Part shown: in pieces, positions 5,679 through 44,985 of the stretch
How the letters are laid out: each line of letters starts with the position of its first letter
Numbering within the stretch: position 1 is the first letter of the stretch
Assembly (NCBI RefSeq): GCF_009914755.1
Contig: NC_060935.1
Length of the DNA stretch: 64,000 nt
Origin: the human T2T-CHM13v2.0 reference genome, Homo sapiens
Direction: 5' to 3' (one strand)
Position numbers and translations under genes: made by a program
Notes under the pieces: model-generated
Told to the model about the DNA's origin: nothing
Databases searched by the model: none
What the model saw: the letters and a program-made list of their open reading frames with translations, nothing else

Positions 5679-5863
5679 CAGTAGTTCACAAAGTATAGTC
5701 CCTGGACAGCAGCATCAGCGTCACTGGGAGCTTGTTAGAAGTGCAAATTGTTAGGCTCCACCCAGACCTGCTGAATTATGAAATCTGGGGGTTGGGTCCA
5801 GGAAACTGTGTTTGTTAAGTTCTCCAGGTGATTCTGATGCACACTGAATTTTGAGAACCACTG
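5679..5863. mobile_element. MER5A hAT-Charlie MITE
   Basis: cagtagttcacaaa...ttgagaaccactg terminal inverted repeats, ~185 bp. Confidence 0.88.
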
Positions 5864-6946
5864 TCACACATGCTTGGACATACGTTCACAGGCACACACA
5901 CTCATATTCAGGTAAAATCAAGTTAAAATAAATATTAAATAAAAAAGAAGCCATATAAGAGCTGCCTGTGGATGGTGTTTGGGAGAAGGAGGTAGTGAGC
6001 CGTGCTAAGAAGAGGCTTGGGAGGAAGGAGTGAGATATCCTTGCCATTGCAAGGATAAGTGTCAGGCCTCTTAGTTCAGTGGAATTTCTCTCCTCTTCCT
6101 CCCGAGTTGGTGCTGTGAGCCCCACTATAGCAACTGGATGAGGAGCAGGAAATGTGGGTCTTAAGGAAATAACTCAATATTTTTAGGATTCTTTCCATTG
6201 TAAATAAGAGAAACCCATCACAAACAGTTTTGGTCAAAAATGAACACTTATCGGCTTACAAAATTTAAAAGTCCAGAGGTAGATTGGCTTCATGCATAAG
6301 ACAGATTCTGGGTCTCAAACGTCATTGGAATCTATTTCTCTCATTGTGCTGGCTCTAATTTTCCCTGTTATTTTCATCACTCTTGGGGTCTTCTCTTGCA
6401 GTGGTAAAAATAGCCAAAAGCCTTCTAAGGCCCATGTTTGATTTGTTTAGCCACTCCCATATAAGAAGGAGTGACTTTTTCCCCATGGTTCCAACAGAAA
6501 TCCTAGGCTGACTCTCTTTGATCCTGCTTGGGGCACTGGACCAATTAACATGACTCTGATTGGCCAGACCTAGGTCATCCCCAATCCTGGAATCTGGCAA
6601 GGCCACACGAACTGGGTCCTGAATTATCTGATAGAGCAGAGGTATCTTGAACTGCTCACTTTAGGACTGCCTAGTGAGAGACACATAACATTTCTCTTTT
6701 ATTTAAGCCAGTGTGTTTTTGGGTTTCTTTGTTCTAGCAGCTTAGCCTGCATGCTAACATACCCTGTACCAAGGAAGCAGTGTGGGAAAATGGACTGATT
6801 ATTTAGAGATCTGGGATCTCATTAGTTCTACAATTTGCTGTGATGTGACCAGTTTCTTCTTGTGTAAAATAAGCCATGCGGATTGAATCTGGGATGCAGG
6901 AAAATGGAATTCATCTTGAGCAGAATGGGGAAAATAATCGTATTTA

Positions 6947-7278: not shown

Positions 7279-8277
7279 TACTTCATAGGGTTGTGAGAAT
7301 TAGAGGAGCTAATGCCTAGGGCCTGAGACACAACAGATGCCCTATAAGTATGAACTATATTCATTATTATAAGGTCTGCCCTGACTGACTGCAGGAGGCT
7401 GCCCGGAAGGCTGAGTTGACAAGCCTATAAATCCCCACCAGGACCACATCAGAGCTCACTGGAAATGAGCACCATTGTCAGCCAGCAGTGTTATCCATGG
7501 ACACAGGACAGGGAGTTCCTTGTAATGGAGGAGGCCCCTTCCCTTCCAACTTTAGAGAATGGTATATATTTATACTAAGCCAGCTTAGAAGTGTCCTCTT
7601 TTCCCCTTTTCCCTATACTACCCACACCACCAGGGGCTTCAGGTAAAACACAAACATAAGAGTCCCTGACAGCCTTTCACTCCCTGGCAGTTCTTTTCTC
7701 CACCCACTTTCTCATTTTCTGGGCCGAACTCTTGAATCCGGAGACTCCAGACTTATGAGAGATGCCTAGACTTCTCCAGCTTCTCTTTTTAAATTGTTTT
7801 TACTTCCCTCTCGTTCTGACTCAAATCTCATCTCAGGGACTGGAAATTGCTGTGTTAAATGATATTGTCAGCCTGGTCTTTGAAGGATGCGTTTCTAGGA
7901 CCGTGGCCTCCCCACAGGTCCAATCCCATTTGGGGTGATTCTGCCTCTGCTGGTTCCACTAGCCTAAGAAGTTCTGGGTCCAAAGAGGAGCCTCCATGGG
8001 GGTTCTGGTCTGCTGAGAACCCAATCACTAACACAATTTAGAAAATAACCCAAGTCAGATAATCCAAATCTGAAATCCCATCCCCAATCCCTAATTGTAT
8101 GCAGGGAAATGTCTTATTTTGACCATTTTCAAAAGTCACAGAAAGTGTGGAAATGATGTATGAGTGAGGGCTCAATTGAAGAAAATAAAATCCAACTAGT
8201 TTAAATGGGATCGTTTGCAGAGGCTAAATCCACTCCAACAGCCCTATTCTTAAATCTTTCGATTCCTTCTTCTATAT

Positions 8278-8498
8278 TGGAGTTGGCAAACTATGGCCTG
8301 CTTTTGTAAATAACACTGCCACCTGTTTGTGTAAGCAAAGCTTGATTGGAACACAGCCACGCCCGTTCATGTACATATTGTCTATGGCTGCTCTAGCACT
8401 TCTGACAGTGGAGTTTAGTTACAGCAAAGACCTCATGGTTCACAAAGCCCAAAACTTTTACTGCCTGTCTTTTTTTCAGAAAAAGTTTGCCAATTCCT
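8278..8498. mobile_element. MER58A-like hAT element
   Basis: gttggcaaactatggcc...ggaacacagccacgccc...aaagtttgccaattcctg. Confidence 0.8.
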
Positions 8499-9145
8499 GT
8501 TCTATATTATATCAACTTCACTTAGCACAGGCCACCATCAGCCAACGAAGCTAACAACTGCTCCCATACACCCATGTGTGTACTTACTCTAGTAGCTCTG
8601 GAAGTGGCACCCATAGCAACGACTTCAGTCTGAACTGTAGTTATGCTCCTCCCTCCATGGTCTAGCATCCTCCACATCCCTTTCCACACCCATGGATAGG
8701 AGAGACAGATGATTTTTTTTTAGGGCAGCTGTAGACGCATCTTGGTTCTCAGACAGAGCCAGGAATATACAGCTCTGAGCCTGTCGTTTTCTTTCTGTAA
8801 ACTCTCTTAGTCTGTTAGTTGAAGTCAGTCAGTCCCATTGTGCCGTTGGCAGTAGGGAGTCCTTTTCTACCATGAGGAGAATGTATGAGAAGTGGAGACA
8901 GTACAACTGGAGAGCCTGTACTGATGGAATATGGGCACCACTACTCAGCTCCAGCTAATGATTGTTACAGTGGAATGCAAACCTGTGTTGTCAAATCTTC
9001 TGATTTGTCAAGAGAGGCTGGAAATATTGTTTTGTTTTGTTTTAACAGGCAGTCATTGCACACTGAGGTTTAAGGCTTTACTTGTTGGTGATCTTGGGCA
9101 AGTTTGTGTGCTTTTCTTAAGCTTGGTGTCCTAAGCTGTCCAGTG

Positions 9146-39070: not shown

Positions 39071-41563
39071 TCATTCTCCACCCCTCCCTGTGTTCACATT
39101 GTTTGCCCCATAAGTCCACTCTGTCACTGGCACATGGCTTGCTTTGGCCAACAGGATGTGAGCAGATGTGACACAGCAGATCTTTACAAAAGCACTTGCA
39201 CTTTTCTGCTTAGGCCTTGCTGGCTGAGTGGCCATAAGCACATGCCTGGGCTAGCCTCCTGGAGTATAACTCCCCTGGGACAGCCAAATTGTCCTAGTTA
39301 TCCCAGCTGTGGCCATCCTAGCAAAGCCAATAGCCAACCAGTCCCAAGCTTGTAAGTGAGCACAGTCAAAACAAGGAAGACTGCCCAGCCAACAGCAGCT
39401 GACTGCAGAGGCATGAGCGAGCCCAGCCCAGCAGAGATAAGCTAAGCTGAGCCCAGGTCAGCTAAGACCCTGCACACTTGTAAACAACACAGTTTATTCT
39501 TGCACGCCAATGAAATTATTGAGGTTGCTCATTACAAAGGATTAGTATGTCAATGGATATCTGGTAATAAATGCGATTTAAACATCCAGCAATTGAGGAA
39601 TGGTGCAATACCTTGCAGCAATTAAGAAAGCTGGTATAAAGACTATACTTTCAGGGATCATTTCTATAGTTCATTACTAAAGAAGTCTATCTGAACATGT
39701 AGAACACATGACACCATAAGGAGGAGGCACAACATTCTCCCTAGAGCCTGAAGCTGGCTCTTGGTGTTTCATGACTACAGCAGCCATTTGCCACTGATGA
39801 CTGTTCTCTTCCAGGAGAATAAGAAGGAGAAGATGCAGTTTGGGTTGTTTAAAAAAAAGAATTCTGATGCAGATGTATATTGACTTGAAATGTTCACAAC
39901 AGACTGATAAATTGTAGGCGGAATGGGAATGGGAAGCAGGTTGCAAAACAATGTATGTAATATGATACCATTTTCATAAAACATATATTTACACATTTGC
40001 ATATGAATGAGTCAGGTCTGATACACAAGATGCTGAAAGTGGTTATTTCCAAATGGTAGGATTTGGGGTGATTTTCATTTGTTGTTTATCTGTGTTTTAG
40101 AGTTATTCTATAGGAACATGTGTCATTTGTACAATTTTCAAAGGGGAGAAAAAAATCTTTTCCATAGAGTACAGCATTAAAAAATTTTGAAATCCTTTAG
40201 CTTATCCATAACAACCCTGAGTGTGTTTCAAGTACTTTTTGTGGAAAAAGTCATTGTCCGCTCTTGCAGCATCCTGTCCAGGAGACTTGGTAACACTGGC
40301 TTGTCCAGGATTCACTAAGGGATTGCAGGTAGCAGAACCTGCCTGTCTGATCCCACTGGTAACCCTGAGCTCTGTGGTTGGCAGTGGCTTCATCTTTCCA
40401 GCCCACACAGAGACAGCGAAGCCTAAAAGCTCCTCTACCTTGGAGGAGGCAAGGGTTGGGGTCACTGCGGTTCCCTACTATCCTAACAGCAGAGTAGAGC
40501 CTTCCCAGTAACTTCTTGCCCACAGAGGTTAGTTATGACCTTTAGGAAAACAAAAGAGACCTTTTAAAATTTCCTACTAACAGGAAGCCAAATTTCATAC
40601 ATTCAGAGTAAGAAATTCAATGCCCCAAGGCAGGACAAGGATAGCTACCACCTTAATCCTTCTAAAGGATAAAAGGACTTCCTGCCGGCCTGCCTGCCTG
40701 CATTTCCTCCTTCCTTGCTCTATTTTTCTCTTTCTTTTTCTCTCTCTCTCATTCTTCCTCTTTTCTTCCTTTCTTATCCCATTTGCAGTTAGGCTTTTAC
40801 CTAAAACAAATCCTAGTTTAAAGCAAGTAGATCCGTCCCTTTACTGTCCTTACCAGTTCTCAATTTGCAATAAATCCCAAATACTTTTTTTTTTTTTCTG
40901 CCATTACTGGTGCTGTTGCTAAAACCCTCCTCAGAGAGCTGGTGAAAATTACCCATCAGGCTGATGGGGTCTCATGGAATCATATAATCCGATCCCAGCT
41001 TGTCCCTAAAACACTCACTTCTTTCCATCATTCCTACTTCCTTATCCTTTTGCCGAATTCGAATAGATCTTAATCTTTTCAGCATTTTTATGCCCCAGCA
41101 CTCCTGTCCTACCGTCCTCACATTCTGTGGAGACATTGACTCAGAACATGCCCAACTGCCCTTGCATCTCCCTCTAAATGGCTCCCTGCTGTTTGTTTCC
41201 AGTGTATCACCCTCCTCACCTCCCATCTCCCGCCAAGCTCTCGACCCCAACACAACTGGTTTTCCCTAGGACAGTGATTATTTTGGTTCAGATCCAGAGG
41301 ATCATGAGGAGTCCATGAGGCCCTGAAGGTGATCCACAAATCTTCAGAAAGCAAAGCAGAATCTTTATGTCAATTTTTAGGTGTGAGTCCCTAGCTTTCT
41401 TTTAATTTCCAAAGGGCTGTATAGATCTAGACAGTGCTTTATCAGTTACCCTCTCTTTCTTGAATTTTTAGGCTCCCTCCCTTTCAACTGGTATCCCCTT
41501 CTCCATCTACACATAACCTGGGTGTACCAGGGCCATGGACAACTACGAAATATAATTACCAGG

Positions 41564-42288
<725 letters not shown>

Positions 42289-42359
42289 CCAGAAATAAAA
42301 ATAACTTGCTTTAAGATATCAAAGTTGCTATCTTTGTTACACTGACAATAGATTCCTAA

Positions 42360-44985
42360 CTTATCTTTTTTCTCTGGCTGCTTTTAAGATCTTCTCTTTA
42401 TCACTGGTTTTAAGCAATTTGATTATGAGATGTCTTAGTGGAGTATTCTTCATGTTTCTTGAACTTGGAGTTTATTGAGCTTCTTGGATCTGCAGATTAT
42501 AATTTTCATAAAGTTTGGAGATTTTTTCACATCATTTTTTCAAATATGTATATTTTTTGCTTCCCATTCACAGACTTGAATTATATATATAATTCCAAGT
42601 GGCACATCCCACTTCCTGGGTTCAGTGGGATAGTCCTACCTCCCTGGAGACCCTACCAACCAACACATCTTCAGCCCCTCCCTCCTGAAGTGGCCACAGC
42701 AGCTCAAGGAAGACAGAAATTTAAGTTTGTCCCAGAGATAACTAATGCTCTTTAATTTTTAAAATTCGTTCTTGTCTGAGTCTTTTACTTAGGCCAGTTT
42801 CTATTGCTATGCCTCCAAGTTCATTAATATTTTCTTCTCATTGTAAAGACTGGGGGACCTCTTTCTTAAGTGATCTTTGTCTTAAGATTTGGTGCAATAT
42901 ATCAGTAGACCTAACAGAATGAATATCTAACAAAAGAAAGTTGAAAACTAAATGACTGTTACCTTTCTCTTTGAAATACTGTAGGAATGAAAGTTAGATA
43001 TACTTTGTGACTTCCACGAGACACTGACCATCACACAGGCTGTGATTTTTATCAGTGCAAGACGCAAGGTGAGCAGGCTCACTGAGAAAACGCACACCAG
43101 GGACTTCACAGTTCCTGCTCTGCATGATGATATGGACTAGAAGGAAAAAGATGTTAGCATGAGGGATTTCTGATCAGGGTCAAGCTGTGTTCTGATCACT
43201 AATGACTTGTCGGCTTGTGGGATGGAGGAGCAATGAGTGTCTTTGGTTACAAACTGTGATCTACCTACCAATTGTGAAAACTATATTCACAGGAGTCGAC
43301 AGCAGCAGTTGATGGCAAGATGGTACTCAGAAATGGCATTGATGTAATTTAGGACGTGGAATCATAAGTGAGACAGCACACAATTAGAACAAAGAATTGG
43401 CAGAGGGGGTCGACTTGGGAAGAAAGGTGTGGATATAAACTGTTACTGAAGAAGACAAATAGATTGTTCATGACACTGAGACTTTCTACGATACCATAGC
43501 GGAAGAGATGCCCATGCATGTGGCTGACCTTATTTCATTCCGAAGTGAGATAGTTTTGGATGCAGTGCTCGTTGTTGCTGAATAAGTGACCACAATGTGC
43601 ATTGTGCTTCTTTCTTTGGAAATATTTGAATCTTGTCTCAATGCTTAAAATCGATCAGAGATACAGATTTTGATAGCAAAGTGACATTAGTCATGAGCCC
43701 TTGTGAAGATAGTCATTATTTTTTATCTTCTTTAGAGTTAGACTGAGGGGGTGGGTATAAAAGATGGGGTCTATAACATCTTTCTTTCTTAGAAATGTAT
43801 TTCCTAGTCCCATGGAAATGGTTGCATTAGATGTTCTCTATCATTTAATAATATACTTGTGGACTAAAAGATAAAAGTGCTGTATGAAATAAGCCAATTA
43901 TGTTAAACTAGCACATCTGCCTTTACTGCGTTTATCATTAGTCTGAATAGAAAGACCTTTAAAATTAATTTTTTAGAAAGCATTTGAATGCATTCTTTGC
44001 TATTGTATTTATTCAATAAAGTATTTAATTAGTAAAAAGATATTGTCTTCTGCAATATCTAACCTTCTGTTAATCTTATATGGTGTATTTTTCATCCCAG
44101 ATTTCAAAGTTTTGCTATCTAGGCTTTCAATTTGTGTCTTTTTTGTATTTTCTCTGGCTCTTCTGAACTTTTAAAACATTTAACACAATTACAATAATTG
44201 TTTTAATGTTCTTCTCTGTTAAGTCTAATATCTGTGTCAGTTCTGGGTCAGTTTTTACAGACCGATTATTCTCCTCGCTGTGTTTTCCTGCCTTGCTGTG
44301 TCTTTGATTGGATAATGCAAATTGTGAATTTCACCTTGTTGGGTGCCAAATTTTTTTTTTTTTTAATTCTTGTATGTTTTCTTGAGCTTTTCAGGTCTTG
44401 CCTTTGTGCTTTGAGAGGCACTTTCTGGAGCAGTGCTCAGTCTAGGGTTAATTATTCCCCACCACTGAGGCAAGACCTTACTAAGTACCCAGTGCCCCAT
44501 GAATGATGAGTTTTTCCAGTCTGACTGATGGGAACAGGTACCATGCCTGGCACCCACTGTTCCTTCTAATCCTTTCAGATGGCTCAGTCCTCAGCCTACA
44601 CGCATGCACTGTTCACCACTTTGCTGAATGGCCAAGGGGATCCTCTGTGGAGCTTTGGGATTCTCTCTCTGTGCAGCCGTCTTCTCTCCAGTACTCTCTC
44701 TTTAGAACCACGGCTGACTTGGTCTCTCTGGACACTCACTTCTGTCTTTTCAACTTCAGGAGTCTGCCAGGATCCATCTTAGTTCTCCCTCTCTGCACAG
44801 TGACCTGGCAACTCTGCCAAGGTAATTCTGGGGTAATCCTGGGACTCACCTAGTTTGTTTCCAATGTTGTTCATTGCCTGGTGTCCAGTGTCTTGAAAAC
44901 TGTTGCTTCATATATTTTGTTTGTTTGTTTCAAATGGGAGGATAAATCCAGTCCCTCCTTCACTCCATCTTGACCAGAAGCAGAA
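42360..44985 (-). mobile_element. Old L1M fragments (host of the EIF4A2 retrocopy)
   Basis: ctctggctgcttttaagatcttctctttatc... The L1-like sequence resumes across the retrocopy (ttttcttct|gcaatatctaacc). Confidence 0.65.
42839..44039 (+). pseudogene. EIF4A2P5: 5'-truncated, partly processed EIF4A2 (eIF4A-II DEAD-box helicase) retrocopy; symbol from recollection
   Basis: From 42985 it translates as [34 protein letters not shown]...ALHDDMD*KEKD...DLPTNCENYIHR. From 43395 it gives IGRGGRLGKKGV..., then after a frameshift ...EEMPMHVADLI. This is the eIF4A2 C-terminal half with stops. About 500 nt of 3' UTR, AATAAA at 44015 and a short A tail follow. TSD ATATTTTCTTCT (42827) / ATATTGTCTTCT (44040). 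Confidence 0.93.

What the first reader, a model, noticed from the sequence alone, without database searches (positions are those of the whole stretch)
42839..42984. Same retrocopy is semi-processed: its 5' end looks like retained intron
Seen: upstream of the first homologous codon (GAA TGA AAG = EWK) lies acctttctctttgaaatactgtag, a pyrimidine tract + AG, instead of the expected upstream coding sequence. It lies inside the TSD-bounded insert, while the downstream coding stretch is intron-free. Knowledge: EIF4A2 introns host several snoRNAs (SNORD2, SNORA81, SNORA63, SNORA4). Inference: the template retained, or began within, this intron while also including the poison exon. It may be a snoRNA-host processing intermediate or a detained-intron transcript rather than canonical mRNA.
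Basis: partly seen in the sequence, partly recalled or inferred. Interest (0 to 1): 0.72.

Follow-up and report, generated by a model that had tools for sequence, protein, structure and literature searches.

The report
EIF4A2 retrocopy keeping its SNORA81 intron
This dead chromosome-11 copy of EIF4A2 was reverse-transcribed from an RNA that still carried part of one intron, including half of the small nucleolar RNA SNORA81, so it is a tidy fossil of an already described kind of snoRNA-linked retrocopy, not a new mechanism.

Summary
Window 42840-42984 is EIF4A2 intron 7 sequence. It aligns to the parent gene on chr3 at 125 of 143 aligned bases (87.4%). The whole-genome search matched this part only to the parent locus.

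The copy starts inside SNORA81, at model position 108 of 179. It carries the snoRNA's 3' hairpin and then the rest of intron 7. A 183-nt SINE-like block present in the parent is absent; the retrocopy keeps that block's empty site, with one copy of its 9-bp duplication. After the intron come exons 8-9-10, the known intron-10 poison exon and exon 11, all precisely spliced. The copy ends at the proximal poly(A) site with a short A run. It is flanked by a 12-bp target-site duplication. Six of 10 paralogous copies of the host repeat confirm the empty target site.

This matches a described class: Weber's (2006) Type-3 snoRNA retroposons with a partial snoRNA. The matching RNA, an EIF4A2-SNORA81 snoRNA-retaining transcript, was found bound to dyskerin in 2022.

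A chr18 copy starts at SNORA81 nt 1-2. Three of 4 EIF4A1-SNORA67 copies start at snoRNA nt 1. These favour a template whose 5' end was the snoRNA, followed by incomplete reverse transcription.

Verdict: a real feature and a new member of a known kind. Interest is modest.

The parts
42827..42838 (+). 5' target-site duplication (12 bp; 11 of 12 identical to the 3' copy); target reads TT/AATATT, loosely like the L1 endonuclease site
   Evidence: Read. Empty-site model aligns across the junction in 6 of 10 paralogous host-repeat copies; L007 shows the motif once.
42840..42902 (+). 3' part of SNORA81 (3' hairpin plus ACA-box region), starting at model position 108 of 179; an 8-nt loss in and next to the upper stem; no 5' hairpin and no H box
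   Evidence: Aligns to L009 5812-5882 with 59 matches, 4 mismatches and 8 gap columns. SNORA81 lies at L009 5705-5882 (213.9 bits). Weak Rfam hit in the window: 29.8 bits against a gathering score of 45.
42903..42984 (+). Rest of EIF4A2 intron 7 down to the 3' splice site (polypyrimidine tract plus AG). 42915-42923 is the single-copy 'empty site' of a SINE-like insertion that the parent now carries.
   Evidence: 42903-42923 = L009 5883-5903 (20 of 21). 42924-42984 = L009 6096-6156 (46 of 59). The parent-only block L009 5904-6086 is flanked by CAGAATGAA at 5895-5903 and 6087-6095.
42985..43122 (+). Exon 8 (138 nt); the Trp codon of EWK is now TGA
   Evidence: Ungapped alignment to L009 6157-6294, 84.1%.
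43123..43212 (+). Exon 9 (90 nt); intron 8, which holds SNORA63, is removed
   Evidence: L009 6525-6614, 85.6%, ungapped; SNORA63 at L009 6330-6461.
43213..43292 (+). Exon 10 (80 nt); intron 9, which holds SNORA4, is removed
   Evidence: L009 6833-6912, 86.2%, ungapped; SNORA4 at L009 6642-6779.
43293..43394 (+). Intron-10 poison exon: 102 of the parent's 107 nt, the last 5 nt missing
   Evidence: L009 7340-7446, 86.3%. The exon equals hg38 chr3:186788310-186788416 in PMC9250932. In the parent it gives a stop two codons into the exon.
43395..44033 (+). Exon 11: remaining coding part (to about 43535) and the 3'UTR, up to the proximal poly(A) site after AATAAA
   Evidence: L009 8155-8792; coding part 89.4%, 3'UTR 90.4%.
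44034..44038 (+). Remnant poly(A) tail (5 A)
   Evidence: The parent continues with unrelated sequence after L009 8792.
44040..44051 (+). 3' target-site duplication

Best explanation
EIF4A2P5 is an L1-made retrocopy of an EIF4A2 'snoRNA-retaining transcript', not of canonical mRNA. In Weber's terms it is a Type-3 snoRNA retroposon of SNORA81 (old name HBI-61) with a partial snoRNA.

Shown:
- The insert (42840-44038) holds, in parental order and orientation, the 3' 71 nt of SNORA81 as measured in the parent.
- Next comes all of intron 7 downstream of the snoRNA, in its state before a 183-nt SINE-like element entered the parent.
- Then come exons 8, 9 and 10, the intron-10 poison exon and exon 11, all precisely spliced.
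- It ends at the proximal poly(A) site with a short A run, and it sits between 12-bp target-site duplications inside an older interspersed repeat.

Inferred:
- The template was a polyadenylated EIF4A2 RNA in which intron 7 stayed unspliced while introns 8, 9 and 10 were removed, with the poison exon included.
- Its 5' end most likely lay at the SNORA81 5' end. The H/ACA snoRNP would have protected that end after cleavage and 5'-3' trimming. This is Weber's model, and it resembles the cSPA and '3' snoRT fragment' RNAs.
- L1 reverse transcription started at the poly(A) tail and stopped 107 nt short of that end, at the top of the basal stem of the snoRNA's 3' hairpin.

The copy is dead. It has several in-frame stops and only half a snoRNA.
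For: 1. Homology and colinearity with the parent.

2. SNORA81 is at L009 5705-5882, and the copy starts at L009 5812, which is model position 108.

3. Exon junctions are exact and the poison exon is present (PMC9250932, passages).

4. The target-site duplication and empty site are verified in 6 of 10 paralogous copies of the host repeat.

5. The class is defined in print.
[quoted passage not shown] Thirty of 42 RPL10 pseudogenes are of this type, 18 with the entire U70 and 12 with a partial U70 (PMC1687206, passages).
- 'Partially processed, exon-containing hnRNAs' are described in PMC1802619 (section 11).

6. The RNA exists today.
- EIF4A2 retained-intron transcripts are among the most dyskerin-enriched cytoplasmic RNAs. 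The two listed have log2FC 6.59 and 6.09.
- 5' RACE found a '3' EIF4A2-SNORA81 snoRT fragment' (PMC9394076, main-text passages; supplement table and the Fig. S4B legend).

7. Evidence for a snoRNA-defined 5' end.
- A second locus (chr18, L012/L040) starts at SNORA81 nt 1-2 and ends at the EIF4A2 poly(A) site.
- In the paralogue EIF4A1, 3 of 4 copies that carry SNORA67, the downstream intron and spliced exons 10-11 start exactly at SNORA67 nt 1. The fourth starts at nt 79.
- Taken together, 0 of these 6 intron-bearing copies start upstream of the snoRNA.
- Zero of 4 full-length EIF4A2 retrocopies (chr10, chr18:13.07 Mb, chr11:58.19 Mb, chrX) contain intron 7 or the poison exon.
Against: - This copy does not reach the snoRNA 5' end, so its own sequence cannot separate a snoRNA-ended template from a longer intron-retaining mRNA that was truncated at random.
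- The stop point is not at an obvious structural block. The 3' strand of the basal stem had already been copied.
- For the EIF4A1 snoRT, published 5' RACE places the RNA start at the end of the upstream exon, not at snoRNA nt 1 (PMC9394076). The exact RACE start for EIF4A2-SNORA81 is only in a figure that I could not read.
- The chr18 copy has lost everything between SNORA81 nt ~126 and 3'UTR position L009 ~8428. An Alu without a clear target-site duplication sits at that join. Its original content is therefore inferred, and Luo & Li read it as an Alu/snoRNA template-switch chimera.
- The sample is small: 2 EIF4A2 copies and 4 EIF4A1 copies.
Confidence: 0.62

Rival explanations
1. The template was an ordinary capped, full-length EIF4A2 transcript that merely retained (or had 'detained') intron 7 and included the poison exon. 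L1 reverse transcription stopped at a random point that happens to lie in SNORA81.
For: - 5' truncation is routine. Luo & Li report 39 (19%) of their H/ACA retrogenes as shortened at the 5' end (PMC1802619).
- Full-length snoRTs exist alongside 3' fragments. For EIF4A1 the 3' fragments account for 86.3% (PMC9394076).
- The start point does not coincide with a snoRNA end.
Against: - None of the 6 intron-bearing EIF4A2 or EIF4A1 copies starts upstream of the snoRNA. Four of the 6 start at snoRNA nt 1-2.
- None of the 4 long EIF4A2 retrocopies keeps intron 7.
- By rough arithmetic, not a tool result: the 178-nt snoRNA is about 8% of a roughly 2.2-kb intron-retaining RNA, so random truncation would rarely land in it.
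Confidence: 0.3
2. The RNA really began inside SNORA81. Either a cryptic start lies in intron 7, or an unassembled snoRNA was cut (for example by sdRNA-type processing), so the copy is full-length for its template.
For: The copy begins at the 5' pocket of the 3' hairpin. That H/ACA-derived small RNAs come mainly from 3' hairpins is recalled, not checked here.
Against: - No second copy shares this start. The other SNORA81 copies start at about nt 1-2 (chr18) and about nt 8-10 (chr21).
- The scan_promoters_terminators tool (bacterial-type sites) was not run, and I have no transcript data.
Confidence: 0.05
3. The 5' 145 nt were joined by L1 template switching, twin priming or filler DNA, or the whole unit is a DNA-level duplication.
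For: Template-switch chimeras of small RNAs are known, and Luo & Li invoked one for HBI-61c.
Against: - The intron-exon 8 junction is contiguous, as in genomic DNA, and in the same orientation. That excludes inversion, filler DNA and a switch from spliced mRNA to mature snoRNA.
- Three downstream introns are gone, and a poly(A) run and target-site duplications are present. That excludes DNA duplication.
Confidence: 0.02

Closest known systems
Type-3 snoRNA retroposons (snoRTs) of Weber 2006, e.g. RPL10-U70 (PMC1687206)
   Same: A snoRNA at the 5' end, the entire downstream host intron, fully processed downstream exons, a poly(A) tail at the host gene's site, and a target-site duplication of about 14 bp. 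In 12 of the 30 U70 cases only part of the snoRNA is present, as here.
   Different: - The host and snoRNA pair (EIF4A2 and SNORA81) has 0 occurrences in Weber's main text.
- Weber's supplements were not readable; only 417 characters are held.
- The spliced part here also contains an NMD 'poison' exon.
H/ACA retrogenes from 'partially processed, exon-containing hnRNAs' (Luo & Li 2006, PMC1802619), e.g. ACA40/MGC5306 with 7 independent copies
   Same: The host intron carrying the H/ACA snoRNA together with all 3' exons, retroposed by L1.
   Different: The HBI-61 entries I saw in their table are HBI-61b (chr21) and HBI-61c (chr18, called an Alu chimera). No chr11 copy appeared among them.
EIF4A2-SNORA81 snoRNA-retaining transcript and its 3' fragment (PMC9394076)
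   Same: The same intron is retained, joined to exon 8. Their reverse primer spans the intron 7/exon 8 junction (read). The transcripts are polyadenylated and 5'-shortened forms exist.
   Different: - That is present-day RNA in MCF7 cells; this is an old DNA copy.
- The modern RNA contains the 183-nt SINE-like block, since their nested primer lies in it. The retrocopy does not.
- Whether the modern RNA carries the poison exon is not stated in what I read.
SPA / cSPA RNAs (5' snoRNA-ended, 3' polyadenylated; NOP56-SNORD86)
   Same: The proposed template architecture: a snoRNP-protected 5' end with a spliced, polyadenylated downstream part.
   Different: Those are box C/D cases. Here the snoRNA is H/ACA, and this copy does not reach the snoRNA 5' end. 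Known to me only through review passages (PMC11028025).
Canonical EIF4A2 processed pseudogenes (chr10, chr18:13.07 Mb, chr11:58.19 Mb, chrX)
   Same: The same parent gene and L1-type retrocopies.
   Different: - They join exon 7 directly to exon 8 and lack the poison exon.
- Three of the 4 run to about L009 8923-8927, a more distal 3' end.

Membership tests
Type-3 snoRNA retroposon (Weber 2006) | snoRNA sequence (entire or partial) at the 5' end of the insert | tested here: met
   42840-42902 matches SNORA81 model positions 108-179. This is the partial form.
Type-3 snoRNA retroposon (Weber 2006) | snoRNA 5' end fully matured (insert begins at snoRNA nt 1) | tested here: not met
   The insert starts at nt 108. 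Weber also counts 12 of 30 U70 copies with a partial snoRNA as Type-3, so this does not exclude membership.
Type-3 snoRNA retroposon (Weber 2006) | Entire downstream intron of the parental host gene | tested here: met
   42903-42984 matches L009 5883-5903 plus 6096-6156. The only parental sequence missing is a 183-nt repeat flanked by 9-bp duplications in the parent.
Type-3 snoRNA retroposon (Weber 2006) | Fully processed downstream exons | tested here: met
   Exon 8/9, 9/10, 10/poison exon and poison exon/11 junctions are exact, apart from 5 nt missing at the end of the poison exon.
Type-3 snoRNA retroposon (Weber 2006) | A-rich tail at the host poly(A) site and a target-site duplication | tested here: met
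   AATAAA is followed 13 nt after its end by 5 A. There is a 12-bp target-site duplication (11 of 12 identical), and the empty site is confirmed in 6 of 10 paralogues.
Canonical processed pseudogene | All introns removed | tested here: not met
   145 nt of intron 7 are retained, contiguous with exon 8.
Functional box H/ACA snoRNA gene (SNORA81, RF01241) | Two hairpins, H box and ACA box; score at or above the Rfam gathering score | tested here: not met
   Only the 3' hairpin is present. The Rfam score is 29.8 bits against a gathering score of 45, and there is an 8-nt loss in and next to the upper stem.
Copy of a 5' snoRNA-ended polyadenylated RNA (SPA/cSPA-like) | 5' end coincides with the snoRNA 5' end | tested here: inconclusive
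   Not met by this copy. It is met by the chr18 EIF4A2 copy and by 3 of 4 EIF4A1-SNORA67 copies.

The most novel reading that the evidence does not exclude
EIF4A2P5 and its chr18 sister are old fossils (roughly 50-100 Myr, uncalibrated) of a snoRNP-capped, polyadenylated EIF4A2-SNORA81 RNA. On this reading:
1. The dyskerin-bound '3' snoRT fragment' pathway is ancient.
2. Retention of the SNORA81 intron and inclusion of the intron-10 poison exon occurred on the same molecule. That fits an uncapped, untranslated RNA that escapes NMD.
3. Such snoRNP-protected fragments are preferred templates for L1 in the germline. This would explain why the snoRNA-host transcripts most enriched with cytoplasmic dyskerin (EIF4A1-SNORA67, EIF4A2-SNORA81, TAF1D-SNORA40) all left Type-3 retrocopies.
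Probability: 0.3. Interest if true: 0.5.

Novelty: new member of a known kind. Interest (0 to 1): 0.35.

Why it matters
The locus is a dated snapshot of EIF4A2 RNA processing. It shows three things:
- An RNA retaining the SNORA81 host intron already existed when the copy was made.
- The vertebrate-conserved poison exon was being spliced in on the same molecule.
- A SINE-like element entered parental intron 7 later.

It links two literatures that use the same abbreviation for different things: snoRNA retroposons (2006) and snoRNA-retaining transcripts (2022). It also suggests that retrocopy 5' ends can be used to infer the true 5' ends of these RNAs. Retrocopies point to snoRNA nt 1, whereas published RACE for EIF4A1 points to the end of the upstream exon.

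On the practical side, RefSeq's EIF4A2P5 span (42985-43586) covers only about half of the real insert (42840-44038).

None of this changes the known mechanism.

Tried and rejected
- **The repeat finder** did not report the target-site duplication, which has no exact 8-mer. I found it by eye and tested it with empty-site alignments.
- **L007**, the first paralogue of the host repeat that I tried, matched only the left flank by blast. Read by eye, it still shows the duplicated motif once. Nine further paralogues were fetched.
- **Rfam on the parent-only 183-nt block** gave no SRP/Alu-type hit. Blast to two Alus gave only matches of 29-31 nt at 83-90%. Its family is therefore not determined. It is a high-copy repeat, with 276 first-look candidates and 40 scored, 39 of them other loci at 69-95% identity, mostly about 70-76% over most of the block. 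'Alu-monomer-like' rests on a recalled motif.
- **Other EIF4A2 snoRNAs.** The 5 SNORA63 and 2 SNORA4 copies found outside chr3 end 5-18 nt past the snoRNA and never reach the downstream exon. They look like Type-1 snoRTs; I did not check them for A tails.
- **Inversion/twin priming, filler DNA, switching from mRNA to mature snoRNA, and DNA-level duplication** are rejected on colinearity, the intact intron-exon junction, the missing downstream introns, the A tail and the target-site duplication.
- **A functional snoRNA** is rejected.
- **Literature.**
  - 'EIF4A2P5' occurs in 1 paper, a methylation list seen in the search listing only.
  - A search on EIF4A2, SPA and snoRNA-capped terms surfaced the review PMC11028025. 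A listing alone cannot show that EIF4A2 is absent from the SPA literature.
  - PMC12152556 has no EIF4A2 or SNORA81 in its text or in the supplements held.
  - A search on semi-processed and retained-intron retrocopies gave nothing specific (listing only).
  - The only EIF4A2 entry in the intron-retention table of PMC4737145 is intron 10, not intron 7.
Full report
**What is there**

The window is human chr11 (T2T), as given in the hub annotation. The first EIF4A2-like codons, GAA TGA AAG, begin at 42985.

A search of the window's own genome with 42800-43100 returned the window itself and two nearby pieces of one chr3 locus. Those pieces cover query 41-124 and 116-301. It also returned four EIF4A-like loci that match only from query 184, two bases before the exon start, and one short hit on the host repeat in the left flank (C3:46.8 Mb, query 1-47).

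I fetched the chr3 locus as L009 (G000:C3:189603001-189612500). It is the EIF4A2 gene. Rfam finds SNORD2, SNORA81, SNORA63 and SNORA4 in it above their gathering scores. Its translated exons give the eIF4A2 C-terminus.

**Alignment to the parent**

Blastn of window 42300-44300 against L009 gives six colinear plus-strand blocks:

| Window | L009 | Content |
|---|---|---|
| 42840-42923 | 5812-5903 | SNORA81 3' part and intron 7 |
| 42915-43122 | 6087-6294 | end of intron 7 and exon 8 |
| 43122-43213 | 6524-6615 | exon 9 |
| 43212-43293 | 6832-6913 | exon 10 |
| 43289-43395 | 7336-7442 | poison exon |
| 43389-44033 | 8149-8792 | exon 11 and 3'UTR |

The refined exon borders carry canonical splice sites in the parent. 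Exon 8 is L009 6157-6294, exon 9 is 6525-6614, exon 10 is 6833-6912 and exon 11 starts at 8155.

The extra exon between exons 10 and 11 is the published poison exon. PMC9250932 (passages) gives it as a 107-bp cassette in intron 10 at hg38 chr3:186788310-186788416. That corresponds to L009 7340-7446, with a GT donor at 7447. This fixes both the offset (hg38 = L009 + 186780970) and the intron numbering. As a cross-check, intron 10 is 1242 nt in L009, and it is also 1242 nt in the retained-intron entry of PMC4737145.

It follows that SNORA81 lies in intron 7, SNORA63 in intron 8 and SNORA4 in intron 9.

**The flagged 145 nt**

SNORA81 occupies L009 5705-5882 (213.9 bits). The retrocopy begins at L009 5812, which is model position 108 of 179. 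That is the last paired base on the 5' strand of the basal stem of the 3' hairpin.

- Window 42840-42902 is the 3' hairpin plus the ACA region: 59 matches, 4 mismatches and 8 gap columns.
- Window 42903-42923 continues into the intron (20 of 21).
- Window 42924-42984 is the last 61 nt of the intron, down to the 3' splice site (46 of 59).

Between the last two pieces the parent has 183 nt (L009 5904-6086) that the retrocopy lacks. In the parent this block is flanked by the 9-bp direct repeat CAGAATGAA, at 5895-5903 and 6087-6095. The retrocopy has that 9-mer once, at 42915-42923.

The block is a high-copy interspersed repeat. The search gave 276 first-look candidates and scored 40. The other 39 loci match at 69-95% identity, mostly about 70-76% over most of the block. 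It has a T-rich 5' end and short Alu-like matches. I take it to be an antisense Alu-family monomer, but its family was not determined, and Rfam gave no SRP-type hit.

The simplest reading is that the retrocopy preserves the intron as it was before this element inserted into the parent.

**Boundaries of the insert**

- The 3' end is at the parent's proximal poly(A) site. AATAAA is followed by 13 nt and then five A in the retrocopy.
- The sequence ATATT[T/G]TCTTCT occurs at 42827-42838 and again at 44040-44051.
- The right flank belongs to an old interspersed repeat with 233 first-look candidates.
- I built an empty-site model from the left flank, one duplication copy and the right flank. It aligns across the junction in 6 of 10 paralogous copies tested. 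Five of the 6 show no gap at the join; L055 has a 4-base gap within the duplicated tract. In the other four, the alignment covers only one side.

The insert is therefore 42840 to about 44038. It is a single retroposition into a pre-existing repeat. The 145 nt are part of it. They are not host sequence and not filler.

**What kind of thing it is**

The architecture is a (partial) snoRNA, the whole downstream intron, processed downstream exons, an A tail and a target-site duplication. This is Weber's Type-3 snoRNA retroposon (PMC1687206; passages).

- Weber reports that 30 of 42 human RPL10 pseudogenes are of this type, 18 with the entire U70 and 12 with a partial U70.
- He explains them by cleavage of the host pre-mRNA, exonucleolytic trimming up to the snoRNA 5' end, and normal splicing and polyadenylation of the rest.

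Luo & Li (PMC1802619; section 11 read, passages) describe the same thing as 'partially processed, exon-containing hnRNAs'. Their examples include seven independent ACA40/MGC5306 copies.

- The HBI-61 (= SNORA81) entries I saw in their table are HBI-61b (chr21) and HBI-61c (chr18).
- No chr11 copy appeared among them.
- EIF4A2 and HBI-61 do not occur in Weber's main text. His supplements could not be read.

**The RNA today**

- Two EIF4A2 retained-intron transcripts are strongly enriched in its RIP-seq table (log2FC 6.59 and 6.09).
- The legend of Fig. S4B describes 5' RACE of a '3' EIF4A2-SNORA81 snoRT fragment'. This was one of the two most abundant snoRTs; the other was TAF1D-SNORA40.
- Their reverse primer spans the intron 7/exon 8 junction, and a nested primer lies in the 183-nt block. 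I read both.

That TAF1D is the same gene as MGC5306 is recalled, not checked.

**Where did the template start?**

This copy alone cannot tell, so I looked at sister copies.

*(a) A second EIF4A2 locus on chr18.* A search with SNORA81 plus flanks found a chr18 locus (L012/L040, minus strand). This is Luo & Li's HBI-61c.

- It starts at SNORA81 nt 1-2, directly after unrelated A-rich target sequence, and runs to about nt 126.
- After an Alu with no evident target-site duplication, it continues with the EIF4A2 3'UTR from L009 ~8428 to the poly(A) site. That stretch is interrupted by three more Alus, of which two have target-site duplications seen as overlapping alignment ends and the third repeats a short 3'UTR motif.
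- Luo & Li called it an Alu/snoRNA template-switch chimera.
- The EIF4A2 3'UTR lying beyond the Alu argues instead for one RNA that carried both SNORA81 at its 5' end and the EIF4A2 3' end, with later or concurrent internal loss.
- Its outer target-site duplication is A-rich and only weakly recognisable.

*(b) The paralogue EIF4A1.* SNORA67 lies in the intron before exon 10.

- Four loci carry SNORA67, the downstream intron and exon 10 spliced to exon 11.
- Three of them (chr7, chr1, chr8) start exactly at SNORA67 nt 1. One (chr9) starts at nt 79.
- A fifth locus (chr6) has the snoRNA plus 53 nt of intron only.

*(c) The long EIF4A2 retrocopies.* None of the four (chr10, chr18:13.07 Mb, chr11:58.19 Mb, chrX) has intron 7 or the poison exon.

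Across both genes, 4 of 6 intron-bearing copies begin at snoRNA nt 1-2, 2 of 6 begin inside the snoRNA, and none begins upstream of it. This favours a snoRNA-defined 5' end with incomplete reverse transcription in the truncated copies.

My odds are about 0.6 for that model and about 0.3 for random truncation of a full-length intron-retaining mRNA.

One unresolved point remains. Published RACE puts the EIF4A1 fragment's start at the end of the upstream exon, not at the snoRNA.

**State and age**

The copy is dead.

- The coding part has 6 in-frame stops before a 2-nt deletion shifts the frame, and 3 more after it.
- Only half of the snoRNA is present. Its Rfam score is 29.8 bits against a gathering score of 45.

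K2P distances to the parent:

| Part | K2P |
|---|---|
| Whole insert | 0.130 ± 0.011 |
| SNORA81 part | 0.066 |
| Rest of the intron | 0.200 |
| Coding exons | 0.153 |
| Poison exon | 0.157 |
| 3'UTR | 0.103 |

If most change lies on the pseudogene lineage, and using a recalled neutral rate of about 1.2-2.2e-9 per site per year, the copy is very roughly 50-100 Myr old. This is not calibrated.

The poison exon lacks its last 5 nt. There is no usable donor at that position in the parent, so this is most simply a later deletion.

**Verdict**

The feature belongs to a kind defined in 2006, and its RNA counterpart was reported in 2022.

What is new is limited to four points:
- This locus is recognised as a SNORA81 Type-3 retroposon. 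I did not find it listed in what I could read.
- It carries the poison exon on the same molecule as the retained intron.
- It records the empty site of the SINE-like block in the parent's intron 7.
- The chr18 copy is re-read as a sister copy.

Noticed in passing
L012/L040 (G000:C18:21894005-21898725, minus strand): A second EIF4A2-derived copy (Luo & Li's 'HBI-61c chimera') starts at SNORA81 nt 1-2 and runs to about nt 126. After an Alu without a clear target-site duplication it continues with the EIF4A2 3'UTR (L009 ~8428-8792), which is interrupted by three more Alus. This argues for a snoRNA-5'-ended EIF4A2 RNA as template rather than an Alu/snoRNA template switch.
   Followed up: partly
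L071 (chr7), L072 (chr1), L073 (chr8), L074 (chr9), L078 (chr6); parent L070 (chr17, EIF4A1): Four EIF4A1 copies carry SNORA67, the downstream intron and spliced exons 10-11. Three start exactly at SNORA67 nt 1 and one at nt 79. A fifth has the snoRNA plus 53 nt of intron. Published 5' RACE for the EIF4A1 snoRT places the RNA start at the end of the upstream exon, which does not match.
   Followed up: partly
L014/L021/L047/L049 (G000:C3:186257794-186264804): An old, roughly 70-75% identical partial copy of EIF4A2 lies 3.35 Mb upstream on chr3. It keeps introns and SNORA81-like and SNORA63-like sequences, and it extends past the poly(A) site. It therefore looks like a DNA-level duplication, not a retrocopy.
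   Followed up: no
L022 (chr3:73.98 Mb) and L023 (chr2:197.90 Mb); also L012: Two 3'UTR-only EIF4A2 fragments both begin at L009 ~8519-8521, next to the A-rich TATAAAAG motif. The chr18 copy has an Alu inserted at the same spot, with a target-site duplication at L009 8517-8533. This may be an L1-endonuclease hot spot inside the 3'UTR.
   Followed up: partly
L052 (G000:C2:197888378-197888513, +) versus L023 (C2:197899240-197899465, -): A SNORA4 copy and an EIF4A2 3'UTR fragment lie about 11 kb apart on chr2, on opposite strands. Both derive from EIF4A2. Whether this is coincidence or one rearranged insertion is unknown.
   Followed up: no
window 42985-43586 (RefSeq EIF4A2P5 span) versus 42840-44038: The annotated pseudogene span covers only about half of the real insert. 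It omits the 145 nt of SNORA81 and intron sequence and about 450 nt of 3'UTR.
   Followed up: yes
window 43390-43396; L009 7442-7446: The retrocopy lacks the last 5 nt of the 107-nt poison exon. The parent has no usable splice donor at that point, so a later 5-nt deletion is the simplest reading.
   Followed up: partly
L004, L006, L016 versus window 44033: Three of the 4 canonical EIF4A2 retrocopies extend to L009 ~8923-8927, about 130 nt past the site used by EIF4A2P5 (L009 8792). This implies that two poly(A) sites have been in use.
   Followed up: no
window 39639-39848: The hub table lists a U3 snoRNA copy 3 kb upstream of the retrocopy, so two snoRNA-related sequences lie within 3.2 kb. 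I did not examine it.
   Followed up: no
L011 (G000:C21:30032301-30032473): An SNORA81 copy (Luo & Li's HBI-61b) starts at about nt 8-10 and ends about 13 nt into the intron, followed by an A run and a likely target-site duplication. It is an ordinary short snoRNA retroposon.
   Followed up: partly
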